A stretch of 64,000 nt of DNA from Fidelibacterota bacterium. Lineage in GTDB: Bacteria; Fidelibacterota; UBA2242. Both the position numbers and the translations under genes were made by a program. The notes below the pieces were generated by a model. That model ran no database searches and was not told where the DNA came from. It saw nothing but the letters and a program-made list of their open reading frames with translations. This document shows positions 26,798 to 42,460 of the stretch, in pieces; the stretch's first letter is position 1, and each line of letters begins with the position of its first letter. The stretch is taken from contig JADHYC010000004.1 in the NCBI GenBank assembly GCA_016782645.1, forward strand, positions 612-64,611. Direction: 5' to 3'.

Positions 26798-27574
26798 TTA
26801 TTGCTTTGCAGATCGACACAGCGAATAATAGATATCCCGTTTCGCATCGTACCATCCCTCGACAATCACGGAGTTCCTGAGTGTTATATCATAAGACTGC
26901 CGCAAGATTTTAGATTCTATTGTAAATCTATCATCTCTTTGAACAGTATGAATAGATTCTGCTTCAATTTCTATATTTTTCCCTAAATCAAACCGTGCAT
27001 ATTCATCGGCATCTTTCCAAGCTCTTACCCAGGAAGAATATCTTGCAACTATCCCAACACCATAAATCCAATCTTTTGAGGTAGGTAATTCTCTTATCCA
27101 TTCAGGCTGAGAACCCCACACTTTTGGCTTTGTTGAATCAAACGAAAGTTTCCCTGTCGATGGATATGCTAACAAAATAAAATATCCATCTTCAGTTAAT
27201 AAAGAATCAACAATGCTGAAATTATTTTTGATCTGAATCAGAATTGATTCTTCATAAGATTGCTCAAAAGTGGGATTTAAAAGCCTTAACTTTCCATCCG
27301 CAAGCTCTTCAACTTCAAAAATTAATTGAATCTGTTTTTGCTTCGCCATGTTCTTCAAAGCAAGGTTTATCGCTACTTGCTCAGCTATAGTAACATCTTG
27401 ATACTTGCCTGAATAACCAACAGAAAACATTGTACCAGCCGGAGCTTCAGGGAGTTGCTCAAACCAGGAAGAGATTACCGTCTGAGATAAAGCCTCCGAA
27501 AGGATCCTGTTGGGAAAAGCTCCGCAAAGTTGTATTACAGCTATTGTAAAAATTACAATACTTTTTCTTTTCAT
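26798..27574 (-). CDS. secreted LPP20-fold protein (paralog 1)
   Basis: Signal peptide. C-terminal block PEWIRELP…DWIYGVGIVARYSS…A…A matches the LPP20/FlgP-like 'PEW…GVG…A…A…A' pattern. Confidence 0.55.
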   Translation of the reverse strand: MKRKSIVIFTIAVIQLCGAFPNRILSEALSQTVISSWFEQLPEAPAGTMFSVGYSGKYQDVTIAEQVAINLALKNMAKQKQIQLIFEVEELADGKLRLLNPTFEQSYEESILIQIKNNFSIVDSLLTEDGYFILLAYPSTGKLSFDSTKPKVWGSQPEWIRELPTSKDWIYGVGIVARYSSWVRAWKDADEYARFDLGKNIEIEAESIHTVQRDDRFTIESKILRQSYDITLRNSVIVEGWYDAKRDIYYSLCRSAKQ

Positions 27575-27819
27575 AATGAAAATACGACCAAACTTGAGTC
27601 AAGTCTTATTAAATTACTTCACCCAATCAATCCTTGATTTGATATTTAGACTAACTTCCATAATTCACAATCTTTTAGTGACTTAACTTAAGTTTGGTTG
27701 ACTTCTGAGAATTCTATAAGATAAACTATATATCATAAGAGATTTGTTCAGAATGGCAAAGAAAGGAAAAGCCTACCCATCCCGAAGTATTGTGACGGGC
27801 AGGCATTTAAGTACTCTTT

Positions 27820-28374
27820 TTACTCTCCTATAGCTTCCAGCTTATCAATCTCTTTTTCAAGGTCATCAAAACTCAGATTGGCTTTCGCCTCGTTATAGAG
27901 TGCTTTCTGTTTTTTTGCCTCATTCAATGTTTCCTGAATTAACGAATTCAAGTTATATTCTGCCAAAGAATAAGCGTGGTATTGACTTCCCTCAGTTTTC
28001 ATCTCTCTTTTGGCAATTCGACACCCACGTAGCACCGTATTAGCAACCTGTTTACTCACTGATGAAGTAAACTCGAGAGCCTCAGCGTCTTCTCCGAGAC
28101 CACTCTGCTGCATGAAGTTTTTCAGCATATTCGAGACTTTTACCTCGATTACTCTCGAGATACCATCTCTTGCACGGGCATCTGAAGCTTCTTTTGCAAG
28201 AGCCATGCTCATCTTTGCTGCATCTCCGGCTTCATAGATGACATCTTCAGCCTGTGGTGGATTAAGGTACCACTCAGGAATTTCCTGCATTTTAGCTTTG
28301 GGTTTTCCACCCCCGCAATTTACAAGCATCAGTGCCAATGGAATCAACATCGCTAAGATTAAAACTTTCTTCAT
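27820..28374 (-). CDS. LPP20-fold lipoprotein (paralog 2)
   Basis: Start at the ATG with GGAGA RBS gives lipobox MKKVLILAMLIPLALMLVNC. PEWYLNPPQAEDVIYEAGDAAKMSMALAKEASDARARDGI motif. C-terminal coiled coil. Confidence 0.6.
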   Translation of the reverse strand: MKKVLILAMLIPLALMLVNCGGGKPKAKMQEIPEWYLNPPQAEDVIYEAGDAAKMSMALAKEASDARARDGISRVIEVKVSNMLKNFMQQSGLGEDAEALEFTSSVSKQVANTVLRGCRIAKREMKTEGSQYHAYSLAEYNLNSLIQETLNEAKKQKALYNEAKANLSFDDLEKEIDKLEAIGE

Positions 28375-28427
28375 AACTTTTCTCCTTCTGTTAAGCATTT
28401 GTTTCTAATTATAATATACTTTTTCTA

Positions 28428-29795
28428 TCAATTAGCTGCACTTTGTAAAAAGGCAGCAAATTTCTTCTTTGATATTTTCAAGTTCTTGTGAGACTTTTCT
28501 ACTGCTGCCTGTCGAGACCCTTCATTCAGTCCTTTTCCCTTTGCTTTAAAAGAGGCTATGGTTTTACCATCAGAACGATCAATGAGGCTCAGCTTCACAA
28601 CAGATTCGACATAAAACTGTTTACCCATTGGAGAATCTATTTCTTTTTCATTGAAAACAGCAACATTACCCTCTATAACAAAAGGGGCGTCATCAGAAAC
28701 CGAGTAACCATTTTCACTAACCAAACCGGCAAATTTATCCTCAATATTTTTGTATCTGCTCCCACTTTTGTCAACGATATGAATAAAAAAATCAAGGGGT
28801 TCGATTTCAAAAAAATAATGAATAAATATCTCCGATTTAGAAATCAAATCTTTGAAAATATCCGGCAGTCTTGCCATATTTAGAGAGATAATCACTGCAC
28901 CATTTTTACCTATATCATCGGTTGGAACGGCAACAACTCTGAATTCGGCAAAACCATCTGAATTGGTCTCTTTTTTTGCAATCAATTCTCCATTATCATA
29001 TTTCGCTAAAACAGGGAATCTATCCACACCAATCTTCTCTCTGGTCTCAGATTCGTAAAAAACTTTTACTACTAAAGGCATTGACAAAACAGTACCTGAT
29101 TTACCCTTTTGATTTTCACCTGATACAGCAGTTAATTCAATATGAGAAAATAGATCACGCATCTCTGCCAAAATCCCCGGTCCGGTGAACTGCTCAATTA
29201 CAGGGTATTTCTTTCCGGATAAAGCAGTGTAAAGTGCACCTTTTGTGTAAAACTCTGGAATGCAATTTTGTGCATCTATATAATTTTCTACAGACGCAAA
29301 TATCTTTCCCTCAGAAGAAAGTTTTCTAGCACTTCCTACCAATTGTTCAGTTTCTGTTAGAATTTCTCCCATCTCAACTTCAATTCCTGATAAATATTTC
29401 GATTTATTGAGCACAGCAAGTATGTAATACTTTCCTTTTACCTTTTTTACCTTTGCTATCTCAATCCCAGCTATAGTTTCCGAAACTACAGATTTGGTTT
29501 GCGACTTTACTTCAGAAGTTATATATCCCTTATCTCCCTCACGAAATTCTGATTCAATTGTTTCAAGTTCCGACTCAATCTTAACCCTTATCTGTTTAGC
29601 AACATCCGCTCTTGCAAGCTCAATTGCTTCTGTTTTGTTATCTGCAATTCCAACACCCAGGAAAAAATTTGAAGAAGGATACTTTTTATGTTGATTTGTC
29701 TTTGCCCACTCCGGAACCTGAGCAAAAACGGAGGTAAAATTCAATAAAAAAAACATTCCTAAGATGAAGATATTTGAGTTCTTGTGCACAATCAT
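28428..29795 (-). CDS. secreted protein with N-terminal LPP20-fold domain (paralog 3) and about 300-aa extension
   Basis: Signal peptide. VPEWAKT…FFLGVGIADNKTEAIELARADVAKQIRVKI. 29 nt from the downstream gene. Confidence 0.55.
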   Translation of the reverse strand: MIVHKNSNIFILGMFFLLNFTSVFAQVPEWAKTNQHKKYPSSNFFLGVGIADNKTEAIELARADVAKQIRVKIESELETIESEFREGDKGYITSEVKSQTKSVVSETIAGIEIAKVKKVKGKYYILAVLNKSKYLSGIEVEMGEILTETEQLVGSARKLSSEGKIFASVENYIDAQNCIPEFYTKGALYTALSGKKYPVIEQFTGPGILAEMRDLFSHIELTAVSGENQKGKSGTVLSMPLVVKVFYESETREKIGVDRFPVLAKYDNGELIAKKETNSDGFAEFRVVAVPTDDIGKNGAVIISLNMARLPDIFKDLISKSEIFIHYFFEIEPLDFFIHIVDKSGSRYKNIEDKFAGLVSENGYSVSDDAPFVIEGNVAVFNEKEIDSPMGKQFYVESVVKLSLIDRSDGKTIASFKAKGKGLNEGSRQAAVEKSHKNLKISKKKFAAFLQSAAN

Positions 29796-29800
29796 CTCCT

Positions 29801-31069
29801 TTACTCTTCAACAACATTAAGAAGTATCAGTTTGCGAGATATGGATACTTTTTTAACCTCTCCATTTCCCTTATAATTCTTCTTAAAATAGCGATAAATA
29901 TCTGTTGAAGATCTATACTGCTCTGGATTGCACCAAAACTGAACATCATAAGTATAATCAGCAACCACATTCTCTTTATATGTTTTTGAAACCTTTTTAA
30001 CAACATCGCTTACCGAAAATATTATATCTTCAGAATCGTCCATATTGAACACATCACTAACCGTAACAATCATTTTGTACTGAATGCCTTGTTTCAGGTC
30101 CTTTTTCCAGTAATTCATGATACGACTTAAAACCTTATCAATTGCGTCATTCATTGCTTCTTCAATAAGTACAGCGTCAGGTACCAACCTCTCATGACTA
30201 TATCCGGTTTCCGTGCCAAGAAGCCGTCCGGTCGTAGTCTCGTATGCCCTACATGCTACAATGCCTTTTTTTACTCTGCTTGATCCGAGCATCCGTGATT
30301 CGATAGAAACATTATAACTCATATAAACATCACTGCCAATTGATAGTGCCAATAGATAGCCATAATCTTCCTCAGCACCCTCAAGTGCATATTGAGTAGC
30401 AGTTAATTTCTGTATCACCTGCTGCTGCTCAGGAACAATTACTTCATATTTTCTTACGGTTAAATAAGACTCGATGACTTCAGCTGCCTTTTTCAAATTG
30501 GGATCTGTTTTAAGGAGTTCTATCGGTGCCGTTTCACCCTTTGCTTCAGGTATGACCATTATAGATGGTAAGCCAACGGAACCGGCTATCGTTGATTCCT
30601 CAGAAAGGACTCCTTTATTAACAAGACTTTCGGTTATTAATGCCTTATTGATTCTGTAGGTTTTCTCAATTTTTAACTTCTTTCCACCTTCTATCTTGAG
30701 ACGCTTATCGTAATATTCTGCCTCCCATGCAATAAAATTCCGAATGTTACTTTTTATAAAAAACTCTTTCTGTATTTTCTCAAATGCTATCCTTTCTTCA
30801 TCTGTTTGAATCAAAGGGTCTGAACCACCAAGTAAAATAAACCATACTGCTGCTTTCATGGCGTCTGTATTTGCGCTTTTGTCCAATACTTTTGCTTTAG
30901 GTTTTCTGTGCTTTCTATCAATTCCATATCCTGTAGCACGAACCATGACCTCGCTCGGAGAAGTGCTTTCCAATAAAACCACTTCTCTCGAACGTGGAAG
31001 GTTTGATTTTCCCATTACAAGAGATGTGCTTAAAAATAGTGTTGCCATGAAAAGTATTTTTTTCATCAA
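29801..31069 (-). CDS. secreted hypothetical protein (envelope cluster member)
   Basis: 422 aa with signal peptide MMKKILFMATLFLSTSLVMG. 5-nt gap to the neighbour, so operonic. Confidence 0.5.
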   Translation of the reverse strand: MMKKILFMATLFLSTSLVMGKSNLPRSREVVLLESTSPSEVMVRATGYGIDRKHRKPKAKVLDKSANTDAMKAAVWFILLGGSDPLIQTDEERIAFEKIQKEFFIKSNIRNFIAWEAEYYDKRLKIEGGKKLKIEKTYRINKALITESLVNKGVLSEESTIAGSVGLPSIMVIPEAKGETAPIELLKTDPNLKKAAEVIESYLTVRKYEVIVPEQQQVIQKLTATQYALEGAEEDYGYLLALSIGSDVYMSYNVSIESRMLGSSRVKKGIVACRAYETTTGRLLGTETGYSHERLVPDAVLIEEAMNDAIDKVLSRIMNYWKKDLKQGIQYKMIVTVSDVFNMDDSEDIIFSVSDVVKKVSKTYKENVVADYTYDVQFWCNPEQYRSSTDIYRYFKKNYKGNGEVKKVSISRKLILLNVVEE

Positions 31070-31077
31070 ATTCTCCT

Positions 31078-32823
31078 TTAAAAAATCTTTAATTTACTTT
31101 GTAGTATTGCAACTGGGTTAAAGGGCAACGTCGGCGGAGAAAAATGGATATAAAAACCATATGTGGGCCCGAAACTGTATATTTTAGGGACTGCCCAGTC
31201 TACTAAGTTATCCATATCTACTTCGTCCTCATCGTACTTTACAGTCCACCAATCCATTGGGGGAAACAAATTAAAACCTGCAAAAACGCCAACATTGCAA
31301 TCAATATTTACTGCATATTCAAGTCCAAGGTTAAATCTCAGACCAAGACTATTATTAGAAATAGTTACATCTTCACCTTCATAATAATCGTTACTGTGAA
31401 AATCGTATATAGAAAGAACTTGAATGCCAGCAAGTCCTTCTCCGTGTAATGCAAATTGTCCCAAATATACTTTCTTCATAAAACCAACATATCCATGAAA
31501 AACTCCTGCAACACGATTAATTGTTGGAGTATTAGAAAAAAGATCGAGACCACTATCATATATCCGACTATTAATTGGCACAGCACCAGCCGATCCACCT
31601 AATATAAAAAAAGTCTGCCGTTTTTTTGTAAACTGCGCAATATTCCATTGAATATCCATATCAATTCCTATTGCACCTCCTTTGTAATCATCAAAATAGA
31701 CAAGAAATTCTTTATCGGTGTTCAAAACAACACCCTCTTCTATATTCATAGTAAACCATCTCGGCTTCACAGCAATATCTATTCCTAATCTTGGATGTTC
31801 AATAATCATCATTCCTCGAACCCAATCACCTTTTTTGATAGCCCACGCCGAAGAAAGTTGCCCGGCAGATTTTCTGTTATCCGTAACTGTGCCCACGCGC
31901 ACAAACCCCGACTTTTCAAAGCGGATTTTACCATCATTCGACTCTACCCATTCACCCACAAAGAAGGGTTCATCCATCTTTATACCTTCTGCTTTTCCAA
32001 GTGGAAAGCGAATATTTCTTTTCACAACCTCGGCAATTGGTGACTGAAGTTTGAAAATATCTATCTCACGCGTTCTAACTTGCAGGTTCATAGCAAGTGT
32101 CTGTGCTGCTGACCGAAATGCTGAATTATGGTTTTCATCGCTTGCTTCTCCTCTGGCAACGATTTTCTCTATCTTTTCAACACCTGGGTTATCTCCTGCT
32201 ATAAGATGATACCAGATCAGCCCACCTTTTATAGAGACCGTTATTTCTTTTTTATCTTCATCCTTCTTGTCCTTACCTTTTTCAACTTTGTACTTAGAAA
32301 GAAATGGGACATATAAGTATGACGAATTCATTACCTGTTCCAATTGTTCGGCAGTAATTCCCATTTCCTTCGCTTTGAGAACAATGAAGGAATTTTTTTG
32401 GACCTCAGTTACAAGATTTCTTGCTCTAATCTCCTTTTGGACATCTAAAATTTTAATAAGCTCTGAAGCAATGGTTTCATCAATGAGATCACCAATTTCT
32501 GATTCAGAGTAACTCCCTCCCATCGAATAAGAGTTTTTAAATGAACTCTGAACCTTTTCCGGAAGAGGATTATAGTCGAAACGGGCGATTTTGATTCCAT
32601 CGTGAATAGCTGAAAGAAAATATCTTTCGTTTCTATCCGGAAGATGAATTCCTCTTTTAGTAACAAGTAAAACATCGACGTATGATATGGATTTTCGAGT
32701 GTATTTCCCAGTCTGAGCAAATCCGCTACTTACCAGTACAAAAATAAAAATTAGAAAAAAGATTTTTCTTATCCATACCATATTCTTTTGTGGAAGTAAT
32801 TCAGAATCGCTTTTAGAAATCAT
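31078..32823 (-). CDS. hypothetical envelope protein with predicted C-terminal beta-barrel
   Basis: 581 aa with N-terminal signal/TM (FFLIFIFVLVSSGFAQ). C-terminal 250 aa alternate hydrophobic/Gly-rich strands ending …KLKIF. It is the first gene of the five-gene minus-strand cluster. Start may be the internal Met (MVWIRK…). Confidence 0.5.
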   Translation of the reverse strand: MISKSDSELLPQKNMVWIRKIFFLIFIFVLVSSGFAQTGKYTRKSISYVDVLLVTKRGIHLPDRNERYFLSAIHDGIKIARFDYNPLPEKVQSSFKNSYSMGGSYSESEIGDLIDETIASELIKILDVQKEIRARNLVTEVQKNSFIVLKAKEMGITAEQLEQVMNSSYLYVPFLSKYKVEKGKDKKDEDKKEITVSIKGGLIWYHLIAGDNPGVEKIEKIVARGEASDENHNSAFRSAAQTLAMNLQVRTREIDIFKLQSPIAEVVKRNIRFPLGKAEGIKMDEPFFVGEWVESNDGKIRFEKSGFVRVGTVTDNRKSAGQLSSAWAIKKGDWVRGMMIIEHPRLGIDIAVKPRWFTMNIEEGVVLNTDKEFLVYFDDYKGGAIGIDMDIQWNIAQFTKKRQTFFILGGSAGAVPINSRIYDSGLDLFSNTPTINRVAGVFHGYVGFMKKVYLGQFALHGEGLAGIQVLSIYDFHSNDYYEGEDVTISNNSLGLRFNLGLEYAVNIDCNVGVFAGFNLFPPMDWWTVKYDEDEVDMDNLVDWAVPKIYSFGPTYGFYIHFSPPTLPFNPVAILQSKLKIF

Positions 32824-32936
32824 GGTTGCTCTACTCTATTACTAATATAATTCTTTTTTGCATTGTGGTTTAATTTCATCTTAAACTTTTTAGATGTCAA
32901 TCTTTTTCTTTTTGATGTCTATTTTAAATATAAATG

Positions 32937-32965
32937 TTGACTTTGTGTGATTTGAGTCATAAAAT
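32937..32965 (+). promoter_or_regulatory. near-consensus sigma70 promoter TTGACT-N17-TAAAAT upstream of the LTD giant gene
   Basis: -35 at 32937-32942, 17-nt spacer, -10 at 32960-32965, ATG at 32987. Confidence 0.45.
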
Positions 32966-32986: not shown

Positions 32987-35900
32987 ATGATTCGCAATAA
33001 TCTTTCAAATATTGTGCTATCTTTTTCTCTATTGATCCAGGCGCAGTTTGCATTTGGTCAAATAGTAACTTTTAACGAGGTAATGTTCGATGCCCTTGGT
33101 GCCGATTATTATGACGAATTTATCGAGATAGTTAATTACAGCGATTCAACCATATCTCTTCACGGAGCTTATTTATTAATAAATGGTAATGTAGATACTT
33201 TAGACTTTCCAAATTCAGACACTCTTGCACCAAATTCCTATGCACTTATTCTTGATAGAGGCTACTTAATAGGAACTAATTCACACACTTATGATGAGCT
33301 CATTCCAGATAGCACATTATTATTAACTATTCAGGATAATTCTTTTGGGCTTTCGAACAGTGAGTCCAACACTCTATTTCTTATTTCAGAATCCGGAGAC
33401 ACCCTCAGCTTTGTAATCACGACACCTGACCAGGATGCAGGTTATTCGGATGAGAAGATTATAATAGACGGACCTAATGATCCGGGGAATTGGGGTAATA
33501 GCACAACTTTACTTGGAACCCCTGGTTTTAAAAATAGTATATTCCCTAAAGATTATGACCTTGCAATTACAGGGTTTGAAGTAACAACTCCTCAAGAACT
33601 AATCGAAGCAGGAAAACCCGTTGAATTCACTTTAACTGTAACAAATACCGGGCTTTTACACTGTTTGGAAGCAGAAATTTTATTCGGTCAAGACATCAAC
33701 TGTGACTCAATCTTACAATCGGGTGAAATTCTTTTTTCTACAATCAAATCCATTAATGCAGAAGATTCGCTCGTTTTCTTTCCTTCTATTCTTAATCCCC
33801 ATTCTGGTATCTCTTCATTGATCGCAACTGTTATCCTTGAAGAGGATGAATCTTTAGAAAATAATGTAGCATTTCTCAAGCTTCATGTACCTTTTGCAGA
33901 AAATTGCATTGCAATTAATGAGTTTATGTATTATCCCAATCCCGAATTTGGTGGAGAATGGGTTGAACTTTTCAATACATCGTCAGATACATTGAACCTG
34001 AAAGACTGGACAATTTCCGATAAATCAAATGAAGCTATTTTAACACAAAATAATTTCTTTTTGCCACCAGCATCTTATGCAATAATTGCAGATGATTCCT
34101 CACTCTTAGAATACTGGAGTATTAATGATTTTTTCATAGATTGCTTATCTCAATTGCCCACCTTAAATAATACTTCAGATTCTATAATTATCCGGGAATT
34201 GTGCGGAAGAACTATTGATGCGATTGGATATTCAAAAACCTGGGGCTATGCACAAGGGACCTCCTTAGAAAGAAAAAATCCTTTTACAAATAGCAGCGAT
34301 CCTGAAAACTGGGGTTTGTCAACCTCAGATAATGGCGGGACACCCGGCCTACCAAACTCTATTCTTCTAGAGGAATACGACCTTAAATGGTGTCAGGATA
34401 GTTTATATATTTTCCCTGATCACCTGCTTCCGGGTGATACAGCAAACCTCCGAATTGTTCTTCAAAACAACGGGCTAAATAATGCCTGCGATTTTTCTAT
34501 CAAAATCCGTCACCACGAAAATATAGAATCGATTGAGCAGAGCCCTATCATATTACAAAAGTTTTATTACGATACTCTTAAATCTTTTCAGCTCTTATAT
34601 GATACTCTAAAATGGAAAATCAATTCTGCAGGGATGGCTTATCTTCATTACAATATCAATTTTTTACCAGACAACGACCTACAAAATAATGAAGTGTTAT
34701 TGCCTATTCATATCGGATATCCGGATAAAAGCATTGTTATCAATGAGATCATGTATCTTCCTGACGCTGGAGATCCGGAATGGTTTGAGATTTTCAATCG
34801 AAACAATCAAATAGTAAACCTCAAAAATTGGTACTTCAAAGATTCAAACAGCACACTTCATTCAATAACTAATAGCACAGTTCATCTAAAACCAGATTCT
34901 TTTGCTATAATAGCATCCAATGAAAATTTCTACTTAAGATACCCAAATTTTAACGGACAATTAATTCTGCCGGAATCGTTCCCTTCTTTGAACAATATCT
35001 CAGATTCACTGGTAATTATTGATGGTGTTGAACATCATATAGATGCGTTACAGTATTCATCTAACTGGGGAAGTGCAACTGGTATATCTATCGAAAGAAT
35101 AAATCCAGATGGTTTAACTAACAGTCAGTCAAACTGGGGACTTTCCCAGGAGAATGACGGAGCTACTCCAGGCTATGAAAATTCCATTGCTGTTAAAAAT
35201 TATGACATTGCTATTGATTCAATTTTCATTAGCTATTCAAATGTTAAATTGATTGAAGGAGATTCCTTATACATCCATTTAGCGATTAGGAATACAGGGC
35301 TAATTGAAATAAATAATTTTCAGATTCAAATTAAAATTCAAAAACCTGGAGCTTCACCTCTGCCTAATAGCTTCCTGGATACGACGATCACTGTTTCTGT
35401 ACTCATTTATCCGGGAGAATCGTTAGCACAAAATTTTATAGTAGATTCAATACCTGGTGGAATCCATATCATTACTGGTAGTATTATCCTCGATCTTGAC
35501 GAAAATAATTCAAACGATAATAACAGCTGCAAGTTATACGTAGGATACCCTGAAAATTCTGTAATAATAAATGAAGTAATGTATTCACCAGAAAGCGGTG
35601 AATCAGAATGGTTCGAAATTTTTAACCTGAGTAACTCACAAGTCGATCTTAACGGCTGGCAGTTCAGAGATGCTAATGGAAAATCTAATCTTCTTGCTGA
35701 CACAACAACTTATCTCCTGCCCAACAGCTTTATCGTAATTGCTGCAAATAAAGATTTCTTACAATGTTATCCTGATTTTAATGCCGATCTAATTACACCC
35801 TCAAATTTTCCAACATTAAACAACACCTCAGATTCACTTTTTCTTATTGATGCAATAGATTATAATATAGAAATGATTTACTATAAAAAAGATTGGGGCG

Positions 35901-37996
35901 GCGGGGATGGTGTTTCTTTGGAAAGGCGTAATCCACATTCCTTTGCTCTCGATGAGAATAACTGGGGGAGTTCAATATCTGAAGTAGGAGCCACTCCCGG
36001 TCTTCCAAATTCAATATTGAAGTACGACTTTGATCTATTGATCGTTCCCTCATCATTTCTATTCGTTGATTCTATTGCAAAAGTCGGTCAATCCGTTTCT
36101 TTCAAACTTTCTGTAAAAAATAATGGGATTCTACGTTCAAATCCCTTTTCCGTGGAGATATTCAATGATCGAAATAAGGACAGCACCGTTTCACATACTG
36201 AACTCGTTTGGAGTTTATACAATATTCCACCACTTCTACCGGATTCTGTAATAACACTCAGTGGAGATATATATTCCGAAAATTCAGGAAAAGCTAATTA
36301 CATTGCTTTAATTACGACGAGTTTAGAAGAAAATCCGAATGACAATATTTCTTATGCAAATTTACTTGTCACATTTGCATACAATTCCCTTGTTTTAAAT
36401 GAGTTCCTGCCATACCCAAACATAGAGCAAACTGAATTCATTGAGTGTGTTAATATTAGTGATAACGTGATTGACATTTCAGGCTGGAGCTTATTAAACA
36501 ACCGCAGTTGTACAACACTGAATTGCCACACGCAAATACCACCCTATGGTTATCTTGTATTAGCAAAAGACAGCTCATTTTTTAATTATTTCCCTCCATC
36601 AAATGCAACAATCACAATTCCTCAAAAATGGCTTAGTTTAAACAATACATCAGATAAAATAATACTTAAGGATTTAACAGGAAAGACAATAGATTCTTTA
36701 TTATATGACGATACATGGAACTTAAAATCCGGAATATCTTTTGAAAAAATCTTTCCATATCTCAAATCTAATAATGAATCTTCCTGGTCCCTATCAACTA
36801 ATGAAAATGGTGCTACTCCCGGAGTTTTAAATAGTGTCACACCTTTAGCTTATGATCTTTCATTGGACTCACTCGAAACTTCTTCTGATATTGGAGATAC
36901 TTCCTCAACTTTTTCGATTACTTTCTTCATCACTAATTGCGGACAAACAGACTGTTACAATGCCTGTATCAAACTTTTTGAATCCAGCAAGCAACAACTG
37001 AAAATGTTAGAATCAATCGAAATTGAAGAATTATCTCCCGGTGAAAACGACACTCTAAGCTGTTTAATTGGACCATTTCAATCAGGTACACATAATTTCA
37101 TCGCTGCTATTGATTGGGAATATGATGAGTATTCAAAAAATGATACACTTAACTTTTCAATCACAATCTCTTTCAGAGGAGAAACGATACTTATTTCAGA
37201 ATTTATGCCTGACCCTATTGATATTAATACTTCCAACAATTCAATTTCAGAATACATTGAGCTATACAACCCAGGCATGGACAGTATATGTATTAATGAA
37301 TGGCATATTTCTGATAACAATACAGCAAAACCAGTAGAGATTTTTCATCAGAATCTATTGCCACCACATAAATACTTTATAGTAGCGTCAGATTCATCTA
37401 TATTCAACTTTCCTTGCATTAATTACTTTAACACAGTCATTCTACACAATTTCCCATCTCTAAATAATAGTGAAGATGCAATATTTATTACAGACCCCTC
37501 TGAAAAAGTAATAGATAGCCTTCTATACAATGCTACCTGGAAAATAACAAAAGGTATTTCACTGGAAAGGATTTATTTTAACAATCCAAACTCTTATAGC
37601 AACTGGCGATCATCTTTGTCAACCTATGGTGGAACACCGGGGTCTGAAAATAGTGTTACCATAATAAATTCCTTAAAAAAGGCGGGTATAAAAGCGGAAC
37701 CAAATCCATTTTCGCCTGATGGAGATGGAATTGACGATGAAGTTGCTTTCCACTATCAACTTCCTTTCCCATCAGCAAAAGTCACGATAGAGATTTATGA
37801 TTTAGCTGGACGACTAATTTATCGTCTTGCTCATAATTTACCTACTTCATCTGAGGGCGCTATTTTCTGGAATGGAGAGAGTAAATACGGAAAAAGAGCA
37901 AGAATTGGATTGTACATCGTCAGATGCTCTGCAACTGATATCGGTACCAGTAAATCTGTGGCTTATATCACTACTGTAGTACTTGCAAGAAGATAG
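32987..37996 (+). CDS. giant secreted protein: six lamin-tail-domain (LTD) modules alternating with CARDB/Ig-like domains, C-terminal FlgD-Ig/Por-type sorting domain
   Basis: LTD cores INEVMFD…, INEFMYYPNPEFGGEWVELFNTS, INEIMYLPDAGDPEWFEIFNRN, INEVMYSPESGESEWFEIFNLS, LNEFLPYPN…EFIECVNIS, ISEFMPDP…EYIELYNPG. Each is followed by …SLER/SIER…NWG…GTPG…NS. The C-terminus is NPFSPDGDGIDDEVAFHYQLPFPSAKVTIEIYDLAGRLIYRL. Confidence 0.75.
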   Translation: MIRNNLSNIVLSFSLLIQAQFAFGQIVTFNEVMFDALGADYYDEFIEIVNYSDSTISLHGAYLLINGNVDTLDFPNSDTLAPNSYALILDRGYLIGTNSHTYDELIPDSTLLLTIQDNSFGLSNSESNTLFLISESGDTLSFVITTPDQDAGYSDEKIIIDGPNDPGNWGNSTTLLGTPGFKNSIFPKDYDLAITGFEVTTPQELIEAGKPVEFTLTVTNTGLLHCLEAEILFGQDINCDSILQSGEILFSTIKSINAEDSLVFFPSILNPHSGISSLIATVILEEDESLENNVAFLKLHVPFAENCIAINEFMYYPNPEFGGEWVELFNTSSDTLNLKDWTISDKSNEAILTQNNFFLPPASYAIIADDSSLLEYWSINDFFIDCLSQLPTLNNTSDSIIIRELCGRTIDAIGYSKTWGYAQGTSLERKNPFTNSSDPENWGLSTSDNGGTPGLPNSILLEEYDLKWCQDSLYIFPDHLLPGDTANLRIVLQNNGLNNACDFSIKIRHHENIESIEQSPIILQKFYYDTLKSFQLLYDTLKWKINSAGMAYLHYNINFLPDNDLQNNEVLLPIHIGYPDKSIVINEIMYLPDAGDPEWFEIFNRNNQIVNLKNWYFKDSNSTLHSITNSTVHLKPDSFAIIASNENFYLRYPNFNGQLILPESFPSLNNISDSLVIIDGVEHHIDALQYSSNWGSATGISIERINPDGLTNSQSNWGLSQENDGATPGYENSIAVKNYDIAIDSIFISYSNVKLIEGDSLYIHLAIRNTGLIEINNFQIQIKIQKPGASPLPNSFLDTTITVSVLIYPGESLAQNFIVDSIPGGIHIITGSIILDLDENNSNDNNSCKLYVGYPENSVIINEVMYSPESGESEWFEIFNLSNSQVDLNGWQFRDANGKSNLLADTTTYLLPNSFIVIAANKDFLQCYPDFNADLITPSNFPTLNNTSDSLFLIDAIDYNIEMIYYKKDWGGGDGVSLERRNPHSFALDENNWGSSISEVGATPGLPNSILKYDFDLLIVPSSFLFVDSIAKVGQSVSFKLSVKNNGILRSNPFSVEIFNDRNKDSTVSHTELVWSLYNIPPLLPDSVITLSGDIYSENSGKANYIALITTSLEENPNDNISYANLLVTFAYNSLVLNEFLPYPNIEQTEFIECVNISDNVIDISGWSLLNNRSCTTLNCHTQIPPYGYLVLAKDSSFFNYFPPSNATITIPQKWLSLNNTSDKIILKDLTGKTIDSLLYDDTWNLKSGISFEKIFPYLKSNNESSWSLSTNENGATPGVLNSVTPLAYDLSLDSLETSSDIGDTSSTFSITFFITNCGQTDCYNACIKLFESSKQQLKMLESIEIEELSPGENDTLSCLIGPFQSGTHNFIAAIDWEYDEYSKNDTLNFSITISFRGETILISEFMPDPIDINTSNNSISEYIELYNPGMDSICINEWHISDNNTAKPVEIFHQNLLPPHKYFIVASDSSIFNFPCINYFNTVILHNFPSLNNSEDAIFITDPSEKVIDSLLYNATWKITKGISLERIYFNNPNSYSNWRSSLSTYGGTPGSENSVTIINSLKKAGIKAEPNPFSPDGDGIDDEVAFHYQLPFPSAKVTIEIYDLAGRLIYRLAHNLPTSSEGAIFWNGESKYGKRARIGLYIVRCSATDIGTSKSVAYITTVVLARR

Positions 37997-38087
37997 CAAA
38001 ATTTTATACTTGATTTTTACCTCAATTAACTATAAAGTAACCCAAAATTAATGTGAAATTAAGATTAATCAAAAAAAGGAGAAAATA

Positions 38088-39200
38088 ATGAAAAGATTTT
38101 TGAAAGTTTTCTGTGTTTTTCTGATTGTATTTGCCTTTTGTGCCGGTACAATTTCTGCCCAATCTCTTGAAGAGAGATTACAGTCAATGGCAAAAACCAA
38201 TGCGAAATTGTATGTAACACCACTTGTAACTGCATTTGGATCGGGAATGAACAGCGGTTGGTTTCACTCTGCAAAACCTCATAAGCTACTTGGCTTTGAT
38301 GTTGGCGTAAGAATAATGGCAGTTACTTTTCCTGAAGATCAAAAAGTTTTCGATTTTGATATTTCAGCACTCGACTTTACAAATTCAATCACTATTAATG
38401 AAAGTAGCTATGACATTACACTAGCCGCTACCGATTTATATCCTGAAACTGAAGTACCCACCTTTTTTGGAGAAAGTGAAGCGGGCAAAATTTCTGCTAT
38501 ACCCAATGCAAATATAGTTAGTTTAATTGAAACGCAATTACTTAATCAGGGTGTGCCCCAGCAAGTACTCGATCACACCGATACTCAGGATAAACTAAAC
38601 AGTTTTGCTGAACTAATCCCAGACATTCCAACACCCGCAGGAACTGGCTTGGAAATGCTACCTTTGATCGTTCCACAGGCTGCGATAGGACTATCCTTAC
38701 CTATGTTACCGATAAAGGCAGAAATCGTTGTAAGAGGATTACCGGAGATAGAGTTGGAAGATGTTGGGAAATTCAAATTTTTCGGGTTGGGCGGTAAACT
38801 TGCTCTTGACCCCTTCATTCCCATTCCTATGTTTCCAATTAATATTGCTTTGGGTACATACATTCAGAAGATGACCATTGGAGATGTATTTGAATCCAAC
38901 CACTCCCTTTTAAGCTTACAAGTTGGTAAAGATCTCAATTTAGTTCTCCTTGCACTCGGAGTATATGCAGGTGTCGGTTTAGAAAGCTCTAACGTAAAAA
39001 TCAACTATACATACTTTAATGAAGACGACCCGGAAGATATCTTTAATAACACCGAAATCAAATTTGATATAAAAGGTGACAATAAATTCCGGACAACTGT
39101 AGGTGCGCGTGTTAGACTGGCAGTTCTCAACATCAGTGCTGATTACTCAATGGGTGCCGATAATGTTCTCACAATTGGTGCAGGACTTTCAATAAGATAA
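38088..39200 (+). CDS. secreted/outer-membrane hypothetical protein (possible partner of LTD giant)
   Basis: Signal peptide MKRFLKVFCVFLIVFAFCAGTISAQ. Gly/Ala-rich beta-strand segments. 91 nt downstream of the giant gene, same strand. Confidence 0.5.
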   Translation: MKRFLKVFCVFLIVFAFCAGTISAQSLEERLQSMAKTNAKLYVTPLVTAFGSGMNSGWFHSAKPHKLLGFDVGVRIMAVTFPEDQKVFDFDISALDFTNSITINESSYDITLAATDLYPETEVPTFFGESEAGKISAIPNANIVSLIETQLLNQGVPQQVLDHTDTQDKLNSFAELIPDIPTPAGTGLEMLPLIVPQAAIGLSLPMLPIKAEIVVRGLPEIELEDVGKFKFFGLGGKLALDPFIPIPMFPINIALGTYIQKMTIGDVFESNHSLLSLQVGKDLNLVLLALGVYAGVGLESSNVKINYTYFNEDDPEDIFNNTEIKFDIKGDNKFRTTVGARVRLAVLNISADYSMGADNVLTIGAGLSIR

Positions 39201-39391: not shown

Positions 39392-40144
39392 ATGAGTAAA
39401 TGGACGGGAACTCTAATAGGTGGCGGAATAGGCTGGGCTCTTTTTGGTCCTCTTGGTGCATTATTTGGTGCTTATATTGGCAGTATGTTTACCAGAGAGG
39501 CTTCAATAAAGGGAGCTTACTTTCATCCTCGTATAGAACAGGAGGAAATTCATTATAAAGAAACACATGCTGGTGACTTTGCCGTAGCTATGCTTTCTTT
39601 ATTCGCATACGTCTCAAAATCTGATAAACAGGTGAAATCATCAGAGGTTCAATATGTGAAACAATTCCTTGTAGATAAATTTGGTAAATCTAATGCACAA
39701 GACCTTATGTATCTTTACAAAGAGATTCTCAATAAAGATTACAACATCGTCGACATATCCAGTCAAATCAGATCACACATGAATTATTATTCACGACTTG
39801 AGCTCCTGCATATACTCTTTGGTATTGCCAAAGCTGATGGAATCATCTACCCTTCTGAAATTTCAGCAATCAATGAAATCGCTAATAGTATGGGTATCTC
39901 TACAAAAGACTACAACTCTATCAAATCAATATTTATTGGAGACTCCAACCAGGCATACAACATTCTAAACGTCAACCCAAATGATGATACAGATACAATA
40001 AAAAAAGCATATCGGGAATTAGCGATAAAGTATCATCCGGATAAAGTTGCAAATTTAGGACCTGAAATTCAGCAACTCGCCGAAGAGAAATTCAAATCAA
40101 TTAATAATGCATATCAAGCAATAAGAAAAGATAAGGGATTTTAG
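39392..40144 (+). CDS. djlA: DjlA-like co-chaperone (N-terminal TM, TerB-like domain, C-terminal J domain)
   Basis: Glycine-zipper TM at the N-terminus. C-terminal J-domain AYNILNVNPNDDTDTIKKAYRELAIKYHPDKV. Confidence 0.7.
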   Translation: MSKWTGTLIGGGIGWALFGPLGALFGAYIGSMFTREASIKGAYFHPRIEQEEIHYKETHAGDFAVAMLSLFAYVSKSDKQVKSSEVQYVKQFLVDKFGKSNAQDLMYLYKEILNKDYNIVDISSQIRSHMNYYSRLELLHILFGIAKADGIIYPSEISAINEIANSMGISTKDYNSIKSIFIGDSNQAYNILNVNPNDDTDTIKKAYRELAIKYHPDKVANLGPEIQQLAEEKFKSINNAYQAIRKDKGF

Positions 40145-40306: not shown

Positions 40307-42460
40307 ATGAATAGGAAATTCATTCTGGTTTTTTTGCTTTTAGTGTTATTCTCTTTAAGCGTAAATATTTTTGCAGATGAAGGAATGTTCCTTCTCAATC
40401 AAATCCCGAAGAAACTTAAGGGATTCGAACTTAAACCGGAAGATTTTTACAGACCGGGTGGCGGCGGGTTATCAGATGCTGTCATTATGATGAGTGGTGG
40501 AACCGCTTCTTTCGTATCGCCGAGAGGGCTGATTTTAACGAACCACCATGTTGCTTACGATGCTATTCAAAAAAATTCCAGTCCTGAAAAAAATTATCTG
40601 GAGGATGGATTTTATGCAAAGAGTATAGAAGAAGAATTACCAGCGCCCGGTTATGAAGCATTTGTAACACTCAATTTTGAAGACATCACAGAACGAGTTA
40701 TGTCTGCTGTAACTGATGAAATGACAGCAATAGAGCTAGCAGAAGCTATTAGAAAAAAGATGGCAGAAATCGAAAAAGAAGAAGAAAACCTTGAAAAGGG
40801 AACTGAGGGGCGTGTCATATCCATGTTAGATGGTTCCTCTTATTACCTCTTCACATATTTAAAGATCAAGGACATACGGCTGGTCTATGCACCTCCAAGC
40901 TCAGTTGGTAATTATGGTGGAGATATTGACAACTGGATGTGGCCCCGCCATACCGGGGATTTTTCCTTTATGAGAGCTTATATTGGGCTAGATGGAGTAC
41001 CTGCAGAATACAGCAAAGAAAATGTTCCATATAATTCTAAAACATATCTTCCAATTTCAAGCAAAGGAGTAAAAAACGGCGATTTTACATTTATCATGGG
41101 TTATCCTGGTCATACTATGAGATACAGAACCTCTAATTCTGTTGATTGGAATCAAAACCTATCTTACCCTTTTGGAATCAAAATGTTTCAATCCATTATA
41201 GATATCCTGGAAGAAGAAAGCAACGACAATGAAAAATTGGCTATTAAATTGTCTTCAACAACTAAAGGATTGAATAATGCTCTGAAAAATTATCAGGGAA
41301 TGGTAGAGGGTTTGAAGAAATCCAATATCCTAGCAAGGAAAAAAATCCAGGAAAGAAAATTAACCCAATTCTTAGAAAAAAACCCCGAACTTAAAAAAAA
41401 GTATGGAGATGTCCTCCCCTCACTAAGGCAACTTTACAAAGAACACCTCGAAGGATACGAAACTGACAGCTATTTGCAATTCATGACTTTTACCCAAACA
41501 GTATCTTATGCTACTACTATTCAAAAATGGAGCGAAGAAAAGGGGAAACCCGATTCTGAAAGAGACCCACGTTATATGGATTACCAGATACCGAGAATTA
41601 AGAAAAGAATGGAGGTATCTGCAAAAGATTACGATGCACCGACTGATGCGAAAGTATTTAAAATATTCCTATGCAAAATGGCAGCTCTTCCTAAAGATCA
41701 ACATGTAGATTTTCTGAGGGAAATAATTGGGGATAAGACAGGTAAAGAGGCTGAAAGTGCAATTAGCAACTTTATAGACGATTTATACGGCAAAACAAAA
41801 CTTACCAACATTGAAGACCGCATGAAAATGTTTGATATGACCACTGAGGAACTTAATGCCCTTAATGATCCATTTATTGGATTTGCCAAGAAAGCCAATG
41901 ATGAACTCGATAGACTTAAAAAGAAAAATGATTACTTTAATGGCAAAATAACAAAACTCCGACCTGAATATTACAAGGCTTTATTGGAATGGAAAGGCGG
42001 GGATATGTACCCGGATGCAAACAGAACAATACGCTTCACTTACGGAACCGTCAAAGGCTATTTCCCGAGAGACGGAATTTACTACAAACCTATCACTGCA
42101 TTGAGAGGAGTCATTGAAAAGCACACCGGTGAAGAGCCTTTTAATGCTCCTAAAAAACTCATCAAACTATATAAGAAGAAAGACTACGGAAAATATATGG
42201 ATAAGGTCATCAAGGACGTGCCAGTTGATTTCCTTGCAACAACCGATATCACTGGTGGAAATTCTGGAAGTCCAATCATGAACGGAAAAGGCGAAATTAT
42301 TGGATGTGCATTTGACGGTGACTACGAATCTATGACAAGTGATTGGCAGTACAGCGACAGGTTAACAAGGACGATTAGCGTAGATTCCAGATACATACTT
42401 TTTATCTTAGATAAGTTTAGTGGTGCTGAGGAGCTACTTGACGAGTTAACTGTTTATTAA
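40307..42460 (+). CDS. S46-family dipeptidyl-peptidase (DPP7/DPP11-like)
   Basis: Signal peptide. Catalytic-triad regions LTNHHVAYDAI … GGNSGSPIMNGKGEIIGCAFDG. 717 aa. Confidence 0.85.
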   Translation: MNRKFILVFLLLVLFSLSVNIFADEGMFLLNQIPKKLKGFELKPEDFYRPGGGGLSDAVIMMSGGTASFVSPRGLILTNHHVAYDAIQKNSSPEKNYLEDGFYAKSIEEELPAPGYEAFVTLNFEDITERVMSAVTDEMTAIELAEAIRKKMAEIEKEEENLEKGTEGRVISMLDGSSYYLFTYLKIKDIRLVYAPPSSVGNYGGDIDNWMWPRHTGDFSFMRAYIGLDGVPAEYSKENVPYNSKTYLPISSKGVKNGDFTFIMGYPGHTMRYRTSNSVDWNQNLSYPFGIKMFQSIIDILEEESNDNEKLAIKLSSTTKGLNNALKNYQGMVEGLKKSNILARKKIQERKLTQFLEKNPELKKKYGDVLPSLRQLYKEHLEGYETDSYLQFMTFTQTVSYATTIQKWSEEKGKPDSERDPRYMDYQIPRIKKRMEVSAKDYDAPTDAKVFKIFLCKMAALPKDQHVDFLREIIGDKTGKEAESAISNFIDDLYGKTKLTNIEDRMKMFDMTTEELNALNDPFIGFAKKANDELDRLKKKNDYFNGKITKLRPEYYKALLEWKGGDMYPDANRTIRFTYGTVKGYFPRDGIYYKPITALRGVIEKHTGEEPFNAPKKLIKLYKKKDYGKYMDKVIKDVPVDFLATTDITGGNSGSPIMNGKGEIIGCAFDGDYESMTSDWQYSDRLTRTISVDSRYILFILDKFSGAEELLDELTVY

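What the first reader, a model, noticed from the sequence alone, without database searches (positions are those of the whole stretch)
32987..39200. 1669-aa surface protein made of six lamin-tail-domain modules
Six about 275-aa modules, each an LTD core (INE(F/V/I)MY.P…EW(F/V)E(L/I)(F/Y)N…(D/N)W…) ending in …S(L/I)ER…NWG…GTPG…NS and followed by a CARDB/Ig-like domain. There is a C-terminal FlgD-Ig/Por-type sorting domain. Bacterial LTDs are usually single domains attached to extracellular nucleases and are thought to bind DNA or membranes. A hexameric LTD array with no catalytic domain suggests a multivalent eDNA- or surface-binding adhesin or matrix protein. It is driven by a near-consensus sigma70 promoter. 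The downstream 370-aa signal-peptide protein may be its outer-membrane partner. DNA-level module starts: about 33052, 33907, 34741, 35566, 36397, 37192.
Basis: partly seen in the sequence, partly recalled or inferred. Interest (0 to 1): 0.65.

Follow-up and report, generated by a model that had tools for sequence, protein, structure and literature searches.

The report
Six-module lamin-tail-domain surface protein, Marinimicrobia
This is a real 1669-residue secreted protein of a Marinimicrobia bacterium, built from six lamin-tail-type domains alternating with five Ig-like spacers, but it belongs to a large, already annotated and functionally untested family, and its strong negative charge argues against the proposed DNA-binding role.

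Summary
ORF 32987..37996 (+) encodes 1669 aa with six Pfam LTD domains (E=8e-80), five (not six) CARDB-like Ig spacers, a signal peptide and a 110-aa C-terminal β-sandwich of the FlgD-Ig/T9SS-CTD superfamily. There is no room for a catalytic domain.

The modules are ancient: 24-45% aa identity, no DNA repeats, and position-by-position orthology across Marinimicrobia.

The architecture is not unusual. NCBI already names relatives "lamin tail domain-containing protein". 120 close homologs carry 4-10 LTDs (six is the mode). A module profile hits 36,202 cluster representatives, with up to 13 modules. Tandem LTD repeats were noted in 2004.

The promoter is supported: the -35 and -10 elements are conserved in 5/5 loci.

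The "outer-membrane partner" is not supported. DUF6588 is a predicted OM β-barrel, but it is replaced by an unrelated gene in the closest relative and absent beside homologs in Ignavibacteria and Calditrichota.

The eDNA-binding idea is disfavoured. Every domain is strongly acidic (pI 4.0-5.0, about -120 net, the most acidic of 39 window proteins).

Best reading: a CTD-sorted, surface-displayed, rod-like multivalent binding protein of unknown ligand. It is a new member of a known but uncharacterised kind, of modest interest.

The parts
32937..32965 (+). Sigma70-type promoter: TTGACT, 17-nt spacer, TAAAAT. It ends 22 nt upstream of the ATG.
   Evidence: 10/12 match. TTGAC is invariant, and TAAA(A/C)T at 17-nt spacing is conserved in 5/5 Marinimicrobia loci while the surrounding intergenic DNA has diverged. 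The count of promoter-like sites in the region is not above shuffled sequence (24 vs 27.4), so the conservation is the evidence.
32987..37996 (+). Complete gene for the 1669-aa LTD-array protein
   Evidence: ORF. Pfam LTD E=8e-80 with six stretches. dN/dS is 0.17-0.20 against two close relatives.
32987..33055 (+). Predicted Sec signal peptide (aa 1-23; cleavage AFG|Q)
   Evidence: Read from the sequence: a basic n-region, a hydrophobic core and a small-residue c-region, conserved in orthologs (consensus). No signal-peptide predictor was run.
33056..33544 (+). LTD1 (aa 24-186), the N-terminal and presumably distal module; divergent motifs and an extra insertion
   Evidence: It matches its positional counterpart best, even in Calditrichota and Ignavibacteria (0.36-0.43 against 0.24-0.34 for other positions). 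Mean ortholog identity 0.54.
33545..33898 (+). Ig1 spacer (aa 187-304), DUF11/CARDB-like
   Evidence: Weak DUF11 and TIGR01451 matches. Matched by the spacer HMM.
33899..34366 (+). LTD2 (aa 305-460)
34367..34723 (+). Ig2 spacer (aa 461-579)
   Evidence: CARDB 12.8 bits, below cut-off. Matched by the spacer HMM.
34724..35194 (+). LTD3 (aa 580-736)
35195..35551 (+). Ig3 spacer (aa 737-855)
   Evidence: No CARDB hit when scanned alone. Homologous to the other spacers.
35552..36022 (+). LTD4 (aa 856-1012), the best Pfam LTD stretch
   Evidence: Pfam best stretch aa 856-966. All-β in the AF2 model, pLDDT 93.
36023..36379 (+). Ig4 spacer (aa 1013-1131)
   Evidence: CARDB 18.3 bits, below cut-off. 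β-sandwich in the AF2 model with block pLDDT 94-98.
36380..36844 (+). LTD5 (aa 1132-1286)
36845..37195 (+). Ig5 spacer (aa 1287-1403), the only spacer that passes the CARDB cut-off
   Evidence: CARDB stretch at aa 1302-1377 in the whole-protein scan. 24.7 bits against a cut-off of 22.7 when scanned alone.
37196..37663 (+). LTD6 (aa 1404-1559); no Ig spacer follows it
37664..37993 (+). C-terminal domain (aa 1560-1669): basic β-sandwich of the FlgD-Ig/T9SS-CTD superfamily with a PNPFSPDGDGIDDE motif
   Evidence: Scanned alone: FlgD_ig 28.9 (cut-off 27), CHU_C 26.3. All 11 family CTDs match CHU_C and FlgD_ig. The profile hits FlgD (3osv, 1.6e-7) and the C-terminal domain of PorU (6za2 residues 1073-1155, 3e-5). 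It is the most conserved domain, 0.59, with pI 9.1.
38088..39200 (+). Neighbouring gene, probably not part of the system: DUF6588, a signal-peptide protein predicted to be an outer-membrane β-barrel with an N-terminal helix
   Evidence: PF20230 E=3e-49. AF2 pLDDT 84. Weak Foldseek matches to OM barrels. Linkage to the LTD gene is not conserved.

Best explanation
The gene encodes a Sec-exported protein of about 171 kDa. It is most likely sorted to the cell surface through its conserved C-terminal β-sandwich, a FlgD-Ig/T9SS-CTD-type domain, and held there by that end. The rest would project as a rod of eleven β-sandwich domains: six LTDs alternating with five CARDB-like Ig spacers.

The six LTDs are the constrained, non-interchangeable working modules and the Ig domains are spacers. 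LTD1 sits at the distal tip. The protein would then act as a multivalent binding or adhesion device for a polymeric or particulate ligand, or for the cell's own envelope. Because every domain is strongly acidic, binding is more likely to involve cations, basic ligands or glycans than naked DNA.

Shown here: the domain anatomy, the absence of a catalytic domain, the ancient origin and positional orthology of the modules, purifying selection, a conserved promoter, acidity, and CTD superfamily membership.

Inferred: the secretion route, the surface anchoring, the rod shape and the binding function. The ligand is unknown.
For: Anatomy:
- Six LTD stretches, E=8e-80.
- Signal peptide, LTDs, spacers and CTD account for all 1669 residues.
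- The AF2 model of LTD4-Ig4-LTD5 is all-β, with pLDDT 93.2 and pTM 0.80.

Conservation:
- Across 28 six-module orthologs the LTDs (0.43-0.54) and the CTD (0.59) are more conserved than the Ig spacers (0.24-0.40).
- Modules are positionally orthologous; 5- and 7-module variants differ by an internal module.
- dN/dS is 0.17-0.20.

C-terminal domain:
- All 11 family CTDs hit CHU_C (best 2e-10) and FlgD_ig. 10/11 weakly hit TIGR04131 and TIGR04183. 11/11 hit the C-terminus of PorU.
- The CTD profile matches solved FlgD and the PorU C-terminal domain.
- NCBI names related fragments 'gliding motility-associated C-terminal domain-containing protein'.

Other:
- The promoter is conserved in 5/5 loci.
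- The literature consistently treats bacterial LTDs as extracellular or envelope-associated modules (PMC6085458, PMC5118699, PMC6461901, PMC12021427).
Against: - No binding function or ligand has been demonstrated for any bacterial LTD.
- The CTD fails the curated NCBIfam cut-offs for both type A and type B T9SS sorting domains (15.1 vs 23; 16 vs 35).
- No T9SS gene lies in the 64-kb window, and I could not check the rest of the genome.
- No other ORF in the window or in the 14 loci carries the same CTD.
- The search meant to show cargo diversity returned only short fragments.
- Foldseek against the PDB gave only generic β-sandwich arrays at TM about 0.2.
- Rod-like geometry is inferred from pTM alone.
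Confidence: 0.55

Rival explanations
1. An extracellular-DNA-binding matrix protein: six LTDs bind eDNA multivalently and cross-link a biofilm matrix or capture DNA as a nutrient.
For: - LTDs co-occur with extracellular nucleases such as ExeM/Xds/NucH and with ComEC-like proteins.
- Deleting the ExeM LTD slows DNA degradation in vitro.
- Acidic domains could in principle bind DNA through Ca2+/Mg2+ bridges (inference).
Against: - Every LTD and Ig domain is acidic (pI 4.05-4.96, net -6 to -21; about -120 overall).
- The 765 LTDs of 120 homologs have a median pI of 4.45, and only 2.6% are above 7.
- It is the most acidic of 39 window proteins.
- The ExeM LTD is dispensable for extracellular DNA degradation in vivo.
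- No nuclease, nucleotidase or nucleoside transporter lies next to the gene in any of three phyla.
Confidence: 0.1
2. A structural surface-coat or fibril protein: an abundant acidic component of the cell envelope, S-layer-like or a hydrated 'brush', whose role is architectural or protective and not specific ligand binding.
For: - The gene sits alone among housekeeping genes in Ignavibacteria and Calditrichota, and in a syntenic block in Marinimicrobia.
- A near-consensus promoter is conserved.
- The composition is very acidic and rich in N/S/T (18-32% per domain), as in many surface-layer proteins.
- The family is widespread.
Against: - There is no evidence of self-assembly or abundance.
- Position-specific conservation of six distinct LTDs, with an especially conserved tip module, fits specific interactions better than a generic coat.
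- Beads-on-a-string Ig arrays are more typical of adhesins (general knowledge).
Confidence: 0.2
3. An outer-membrane tether or scaffold for secreted hydrolases: the LTDs anchor to the membrane, as proposed by Mans 2004 and in the 'planctosome' model, and the array organises peptidases at the surface.
For: - The literature proposes LTDs as membrane tethers for hydrolases.
- Peptidase genes are nearby: S46 at 40307..42460, and two peptidase-like genes directly upstream in L002.
Against: - Peptidase neighbours are not conserved outside Marinimicrobia.
- There are no cohesin/dockerin or other docking modules.
- If the CTD anchors the protein, six further membrane-binding modules would be redundant (inference).
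Confidence: 0.1
4. A two-gene system in which the downstream DUF6588 β-barrel is the dedicated outer-membrane anchor or secretion partner of the LTD protein, analogous to PorP/SprF partners of type B T9SS cargo.
For: - DUF6588 lies 91 nt downstream on the same strand with no terminator-like site between.
- It is a predicted OM barrel with an N-terminal helix.
- It is adjacent in 4 other Marinimicrobia loci (L002, L004, L005, L006).
- The CTD has type-B-like features: the PNPFSPDGDG motif and CHU_C hits.
Against: - In the closest relative (L001; flanks 89-97% identical) the slot holds an unrelated 239-aa protein (hhalign probability 1%).
- In L002 the DUF6588 gene is only 32% identical although the flanks are 76-84%.
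- There is no DUF6588 next to homologs in Ignavibacteria or Calditrichota.
- None of 36 DUF6588 members hits PorP_SprF.
- The whole neighbourhood is syntenic within the phylum, so adjacency there says little.
Confidence: 0.05

Closest known systems
Bacterial multi-LTD proteins annotated 'lamin tail domain-containing protein' (Pfam PF00932 tandem-repeat architectures; Mans et al. 2004)
   Same: The same domain family, the same alternating LTD/CARDB-like architecture, the same C-terminal domain and a signal peptide. Orthologs are 40-91% identical across Marinimicrobia/Fidelibacterota and about 30% in Ignavibacteria, Melioribacteraceae and Calditrichota.
   Different: Nothing essential. This is a six-module member (the modal number) of a family with 4-13 modules. 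No member has been studied experimentally.
ExeM / Xds / NucH extracellular nucleases (LTD + OB-fold + EEP domain)
   Same: They are secreted proteins with an N-terminal LTD after a signal peptide.
   Different: They have one LTD, not six, and they carry OB-fold and EEP catalytic domains that are absent here. There is no nuclease in the neighbourhood.
T9SS cargo proteins of Bacteroidota, such as SprB, CHU-family proteins and gingipains with type A or B CTDs
   Same: A large multi-Ig surface protein with a Sec signal peptide and a C-terminal β-sandwich of about 100 aa. That domain matches CHU_C, FlgD_ig, and the CTDs of PorU and PorZ.
   Different: The CTD is below the curated cut-offs of TIGR04183 and TIGR04131. 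There is no adjacent PorP/SprF-like gene. T9SS machinery in this Marinimicrobia genome was not verified.
Repetitive Ig-like adhesins and matrix proteins (Vibrio RbmA, SiiE/LapA-type giant adhesins)
   Same: A beads-on-a-string arrangement of β-sandwich domains, an acidic surface, and an extracellular location. RbmA appears among the Foldseek hits.
   Different: Only generic fold similarity (TM about 0.2). The repeat unit here is a heterodimeric LTD+Ig pair whose modules are position-specific and not near-identical.
Eukaryotic nuclear lamin tail Ig-fold
   Same: The Pfam LTD family is named after it, and it shares the core β-sandwich motifs.
   Different: There is no coiled-coil rod, NLS or CaaX box. 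The bacterial LTDs carry a C-terminal extension of about 45 aa (S-x-E-R...N-W...T-P-G...N-S) beyond the Pfam model. A profile of this window's modules does not reach solved lamin structures by sequence.

Membership tests
LTD (Pfam PF00932) | Profile match above the gathering score | tested here: met
   264.7 bits against a cut-off of 34.3, E=8.2e-80, six stretches.
Multi-LTD/CARDB surface-protein family of the FCB-group phyla | Full-length colinear homology, with alternating LTD and Ig modules and the shared CTD | tested here: met
   Dozens of hits cover 98-100% of the query at 39-91% identity. 120 homologs have 4-10 LTDs. The CTD HMM hits homologs from three phyla.
CARDB (Pfam PF07705) | Profile match above the gathering score for each spacer | tested here: inconclusive
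   The whole protein passes (48 bits). Scanned alone, only Ig5 passes (24.7 vs 22.7). Ig4 scores 18.3, Ig2 12.8, and Ig1 and Ig3 have no CARDB hit. All five are homologous to each other.
T9SS type A cargo (TIGR04183 / PF18962 Por_Secre_tail) | C-terminal domain above the curated cut-off | tested here: not met
   TIGR04183 15.1 vs 23; PF18962 13.7 vs 27. 10/11 family CTDs hit weakly.
T9SS type B cargo (TIGR04131 / PF13585 CHU_C) | C-terminal domain above the curated cut-off | tested here: inconclusive
   TIGR04131 16 vs 35, not met. CHU_C 26.3-26.4 vs 27, borderline. 11/11 family CTDs hit CHU_C, best 2e-10.
T9SS type B cargo | Adjacent PorP/SprF-family outer-membrane partner gene | tested here: not met
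   The downstream barrel is DUF6588. None of 36 members hits PorP_SprF, and the gene is not conserved next to homologs.
T9SS cargo (any type) | T9SS translocon and sortase genes present in the same genome | not testable with these tools
   None are in the 64-kb window. The literature only suggests possible T9SS in Chlorobi, Fibrobacteres and Ignavibacteriae (PMC5837995).
FlgD_ig (Pfam PF13860) | Profile match above the gathering score | tested here: met
   28.9-29.0 bits vs 27 when the CTD is scanned alone. The profile hits solved FlgD 3osv at 1.6e-7. The whole-protein scan is below the cut-off (23.3).
ExeM/Xds/NucH extracellular nucleases | EEP (or other nuclease) catalytic domain plus OB-fold | tested here: not met
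   No such Pfam or NCBIfam hit. All residues are accounted for by the signal peptide, LTDs, Ig spacers and CTD.
DUF6588 (Pfam PF20230), for the downstream gene | Profile match above the gathering score | tested here: met
   168.3 bits vs 27, full-length.

The most novel reading that the evidence does not exclude
The LTD/Ig array could be a conserved, single-gene core envelope component shared by Marinimicrobia, Ignavibacteria and Calditrichota. It would form cation-stiffened acidic surface fibrils about 50 nm long, whose position-specific LTDs, especially the conserved tip module LTD1, recognise a defined partner such as another cell's envelope or a mineral or particle surface. That would give bacterial LTDs their first defined function and explain why the domain recurs on secreted hydrolases as a surface-targeting module.
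Probability: 0.15. Interest if true: 0.55.

Novelty: new member of a known kind. Interest (0 to 1): 0.3.

Why it matters
No function has been experimentally established for bacterial lamin-tail domains, although they occur in tens of thousands of secreted proteins. This family is a clean, catalysis-free display of LTDs in poorly understood but environmentally abundant FCB-group phyla, and at least one carrier is named to species level (Rosettibacter firmus). It is a reasonable system for asking what LTDs bind. The window's protein adds nothing qualitatively new: the architecture is common and already annotated. The useful corrections are that the array is ancient and position-specific, that it is far too acidic for simple DNA binding, and that the neighbouring barrel is not a conserved partner.

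Full report
**1. Observation**

The window carries an intact ORF at 32987..37996 on the + strand, encoding 1669 aa. Pfam finds the Lamin Tail Domain (PF00932) at E=8.2e-80 in six separate stretches. It also finds one CARDB stretch above threshold, and sub-threshold FlgD_ig and CHU_C matches at the C-terminus.

From these I set the following boundaries:
- signal peptide: aa 1-23
- LTD1-6: aa 24-186, 305-460, 580-736, 856-1012, 1132-1286, 1404-1559
- Ig spacers 1-5: the segments of 117-119 aa in between
- C-terminal domain (CTD): aa 1560-1669

These pieces account for the whole protein, so there is no room for a catalytic domain, and no catalytic family is hit in Pfam or NCBIfam.

Two corrections apply. 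There are five spacers, not six, because LTD6 abuts the CTD. And only Ig5 passes the CARDB cut-off when scanned alone, although the spacers are recognisably homologous to each other and Ig4 folds as a β-sandwich in a high-confidence model.

**2. Age of the repeats**

The LTDs are 24-45% identical to each other, the spacers 21-32%, and the DNA 56-64%. Tandem Repeats Finder and a direct-repeat scan find no module-length DNA repeats. These are ancient duplications.

Across Marinimicrobia orthologs (overall about 40-46% identical), LTD1, 4, 5 and 6 each match their own position best: 0.47-0.64 on the diagonal against about 0.25-0.39 off it. Five- and seven-module variants differ by an internal module. 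LTD1 still matches LTD1 best in Calditrichota and Ignavibacteria.

In 28 six-module orthologs the CTD (0.59) and the LTDs (0.43-0.54) are more conserved than the spacers (0.24-0.40). dN/dS against two close relatives is 0.17-0.20, slightly above the flanking genes at 0.10-0.17. The array is therefore functional, and its modules are not interchangeable.

**3. Source and family**

The downstream protein is 100% identical to a protein from a 'Candidatus Marinimicrobia bacterium' MAG. The nearest loci are Neomarinimicrobiota MAGs.

The large protein search returned 525 hits at E≤1e-10. Dozens are full-length colinear orthologs from Marinimicrobia/Fidelibacterota. Relatives at about 30% identity come from Ignavibacteria, Melioribacteraceae (including Rosettibacter firmus) and Calditrichota. 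NCBI names them 'lamin tail domain-containing protein'.

Counting modules with an HMM built from this protein gives these numbers of LTDs per protein among the 120 homologs:

| LTDs | 4 | 5 | 6 | 7 | 8 | 9 | 10 |
|---|---|---|---|---|---|---|---|
| Proteins | 4 | 17 | 65 | 12 | 11 | 8 | 3 |

A profile of the LTD+Ig module, searched against 1.84 billion cluster representatives, hits 36,202 proteins at E≤1e-3 and 4,421 at E≤1e-30. The 150 best carry 3-13 modules and reach 3,922 aa.

[quoted passage not shown] 2004). A hexameric LTD array is therefore the modal form of a common, annotated and uncharacterised family, not an oddity.

**4. C-terminal domain and secretion**

- Scanned alone, the CTD passes FlgD_ig (28.9 vs 27) and just misses CHU_C (26.3 vs 27). 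Por_Secre_tail is weak.
- In NCBIfam the best local matches are the C-terminal ends of PorU and PorZ. TIGR04131 (16 vs 35) and TIGR04183 (15.1 vs 23) fail their cut-offs.
- At family level, 11/11 CTDs hit CHU_C (best 2e-10) and FlgD_ig, and 10/11 hit both T9SS CTD models weakly.
- A CTD profile matches solved FlgD Ig domains (3osv, 1.6e-7) and the C-terminal domain of the T9SS sortase PorU (6za2 residues 1073-1155 of 1156, 3e-5), with gingipain CTDs trailing.
- The CTD is the best-conserved domain and, unlike the rest of the protein, is basic (pI 9.1).

I conclude that it belongs to the FlgD-Ig/T9SS-CTD superfamily and is most likely a sorting or anchoring domain. The subtype is unresolved. 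I could not verify T9SS machinery: none lies in the window, and there is no relevant literature for this phylum. One paper only notes possible T9SS in Chlorobi, Fibrobacteres and Ignavibacteriae.

**5. Promoter**

TTGACT-17-TAAAAT lies at 32937..32965 (10/12). Promoter-like sites are no more frequent in the region than in shuffles, 24 against 27.4. However, aligning the upstream regions of five Marinimicrobia loci shows an invariant TTGAC and a conserved TAAA(A/C)T at the same spacing within otherwise diverged DNA. No Shine-Dalgarno sequence precedes the ATG, whereas the downstream gene has AAGGAG.

**6. The downstream 'partner'**

The 370-aa protein is DUF6588 (E=3e-49). Its AF2 model (pLDDT 84) has a signal peptide, a long N-terminal helix and a barrel of about 12-14 strands. 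Foldseek gives only weak matches to outer-membrane barrels, among them autotransporter β-domains, FapF and OmpX/OmpA. 'Outer membrane' is therefore plausible.

'Partner' is not:
- In the closest relative (L001; flanks 89-97% identical) the slot holds an unrelated 239-aa signal-peptide protein (hhalign probability 1%).
- In L002 the DUF6588 allele is only 32% identical although the flanks are 76-84%.
- Next to homologs in Rosettibacter, Melioribacter and a Calditrichota MAG there is no DUF6588, only housekeeping genes.
- None of 36 DUF6588 members hits PorP_SprF.

The upstream divergent cluster (a 581-aa protein with no Pfam hit, DUF6175 and two LPP20-like genes) is syntenic in Marinimicrobia. 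It is separated from the LTD gene by two peptidase-like genes in L002 and is absent in the other phyla. The LTD gene behaves as a stand-alone unit.

**7. What it does**

The eDNA idea rests on LTDs co-occurring with nucleases. Several observations weigh against it:
- Every LTD and spacer here is strongly acidic: pI 4.05-4.96, net -6 to -21. The mature ectodomain has pI 4.2, and the whole protein carries about -120 net charge.
- The 765 LTDs of the 120 homologs have a median pI of 4.45, and only 2.6% are above 7.
- This is the most acidic of 39 proteins in the window: -7.2 net charge per 100 aa against a median of -0.2.
- The ExeM LTD is dispensable for extracellular DNA degradation in vivo.
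- No nuclease gene is nearby.

Direct DNA binding is therefore unlikely, though cation-bridged binding is not excluded.

The three-domain AF2 model is all-β with pLDDT 93 and pTM 0.80. That fits a fairly rigid beads-on-a-string rod. Eleven β-sandwiches would span roughly 45-50 nm (inference).

My best reading is a surface-displayed rod anchored by its C-terminal domain. It would present six distinct, constrained LTD binding modules with LTD1 at the tip, and act as a multivalent adhesin or capture device for an unknown ligand that is probably cationic, cation-bridged or a glycan. Rivals are a structural acidic coat or fibril protein, a hydrolase tether, the eDNA matrix protein, and the two-gene partner model. 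All are ranked in the report sections.

**8. Comparison and novelty**

The protein is a member of the LTD family and of the multi-LTD/CARDB family of FCB-group phyla (features tested and met). It is not an ExeM-type nuclease, since it has no catalytic domain. It cannot yet be filed as a bona fide type A or type B T9SS cargo: the curated cut-offs are not met, there is no PorP/SprF neighbour, and the machinery is unverified. It probably works like one.

It is a new member of a known, uncharacterised kind. Interest is modest. A specialist would not be surprised by the architecture. The value lies in pointing to a clean system for finally asking what bacterial LTDs bind.

**9. Limits**

- No signal-peptide predictor was available.
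- The CTD cargo-diversity search was uninformative.
- The rest of the genome could not be inspected.

Noticed in passing
window 38088-39200; L001 2976-3695; L002 13119-14234: The slot just downstream of the LTD gene is variable between close relatives. It holds DUF6588 here, a DUF6588 allele only 32% identical in L002 (flanks 76-84%), and an unrelated 239-aa signal-peptide protein with no Pfam family in L001 (flanks 89-97%). This looks like replacement of a surface-exposed outer-membrane gene.
   Followed up: partly
window 32878-32928: A 22-nt tandem repeat, 2.4 copies (consensus ATCTTAAACTTTTTGATGTCA), lies immediately upstream of the conserved -35 element of the LTD gene. It could be a regulator-binding site.
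   Followed up: no
window ORFs starting at 23325(+), 29795(-), 32823(-), 32987(+), 38088(+), 45552(+): Six of roughly ten signal-peptide proteins in the window have Gln directly after the predicted signal-peptidase I site (VFA|Q, VFA|Q, GFA|Q, AFG|Q, ISA|Q, SLA|Q). This is the 'Q-rule', described as specific to Bacteroidetes and not shared by the whole FCB group (PMC5837995). It may extend to this Marinimicrobia lineage.
   Followed up: no
window 26798-32823 (- strand): A divergent upstream cluster of envelope-type genes: a 581-aa protein with no Pfam hit that ends in Phe (barrel-like), a DUF6175 protein, two LPP20-lipoprotein-like genes and a 257-aa unknown. The 581-aa and DUF6175 genes are syntenic in the Marinimicrobia loci examined. 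Function unknown.
   Followed up: partly
L002 2868-7875: In the relative at 76% identity, two peptidase-like genes (1085 aa and 547 aa; assignment by eye, not scanned) are inserted between the 581-aa gene and the LTD gene. In the window that gap is only 163 bp.
   Followed up: no
window 35195-37993 vs L001: Synonymous divergence from L001 varies widely along the LTD gene: dS 0.04 in Ig5 and 0.085 in LTD5, but 0.69 in Ig3 and 0.41 in the CTD. Against L002, LTD1 is the least conserved domain (66% aa) although it is among the best conserved across the wider family. This suggests recombination mosaics between strains.
   Followed up: partly
P0117 aa 1120-1446; P0083 aa 1648-1968 (Ignavibacteria homologs): In Ignavibacteria homologs the last two LTDs abut directly, without an Ig spacer. 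That differs from the strict alternation seen in Marinimicrobia.
   Followed up: no
window 39392-40144: A TerB-DnaJ fusion protein with an N-terminal glycine-rich hydrophobic segment is conserved directly after the DUF6588 slot in all Marinimicrobia loci that extend that far (64-97% identity).
   Followed up: no
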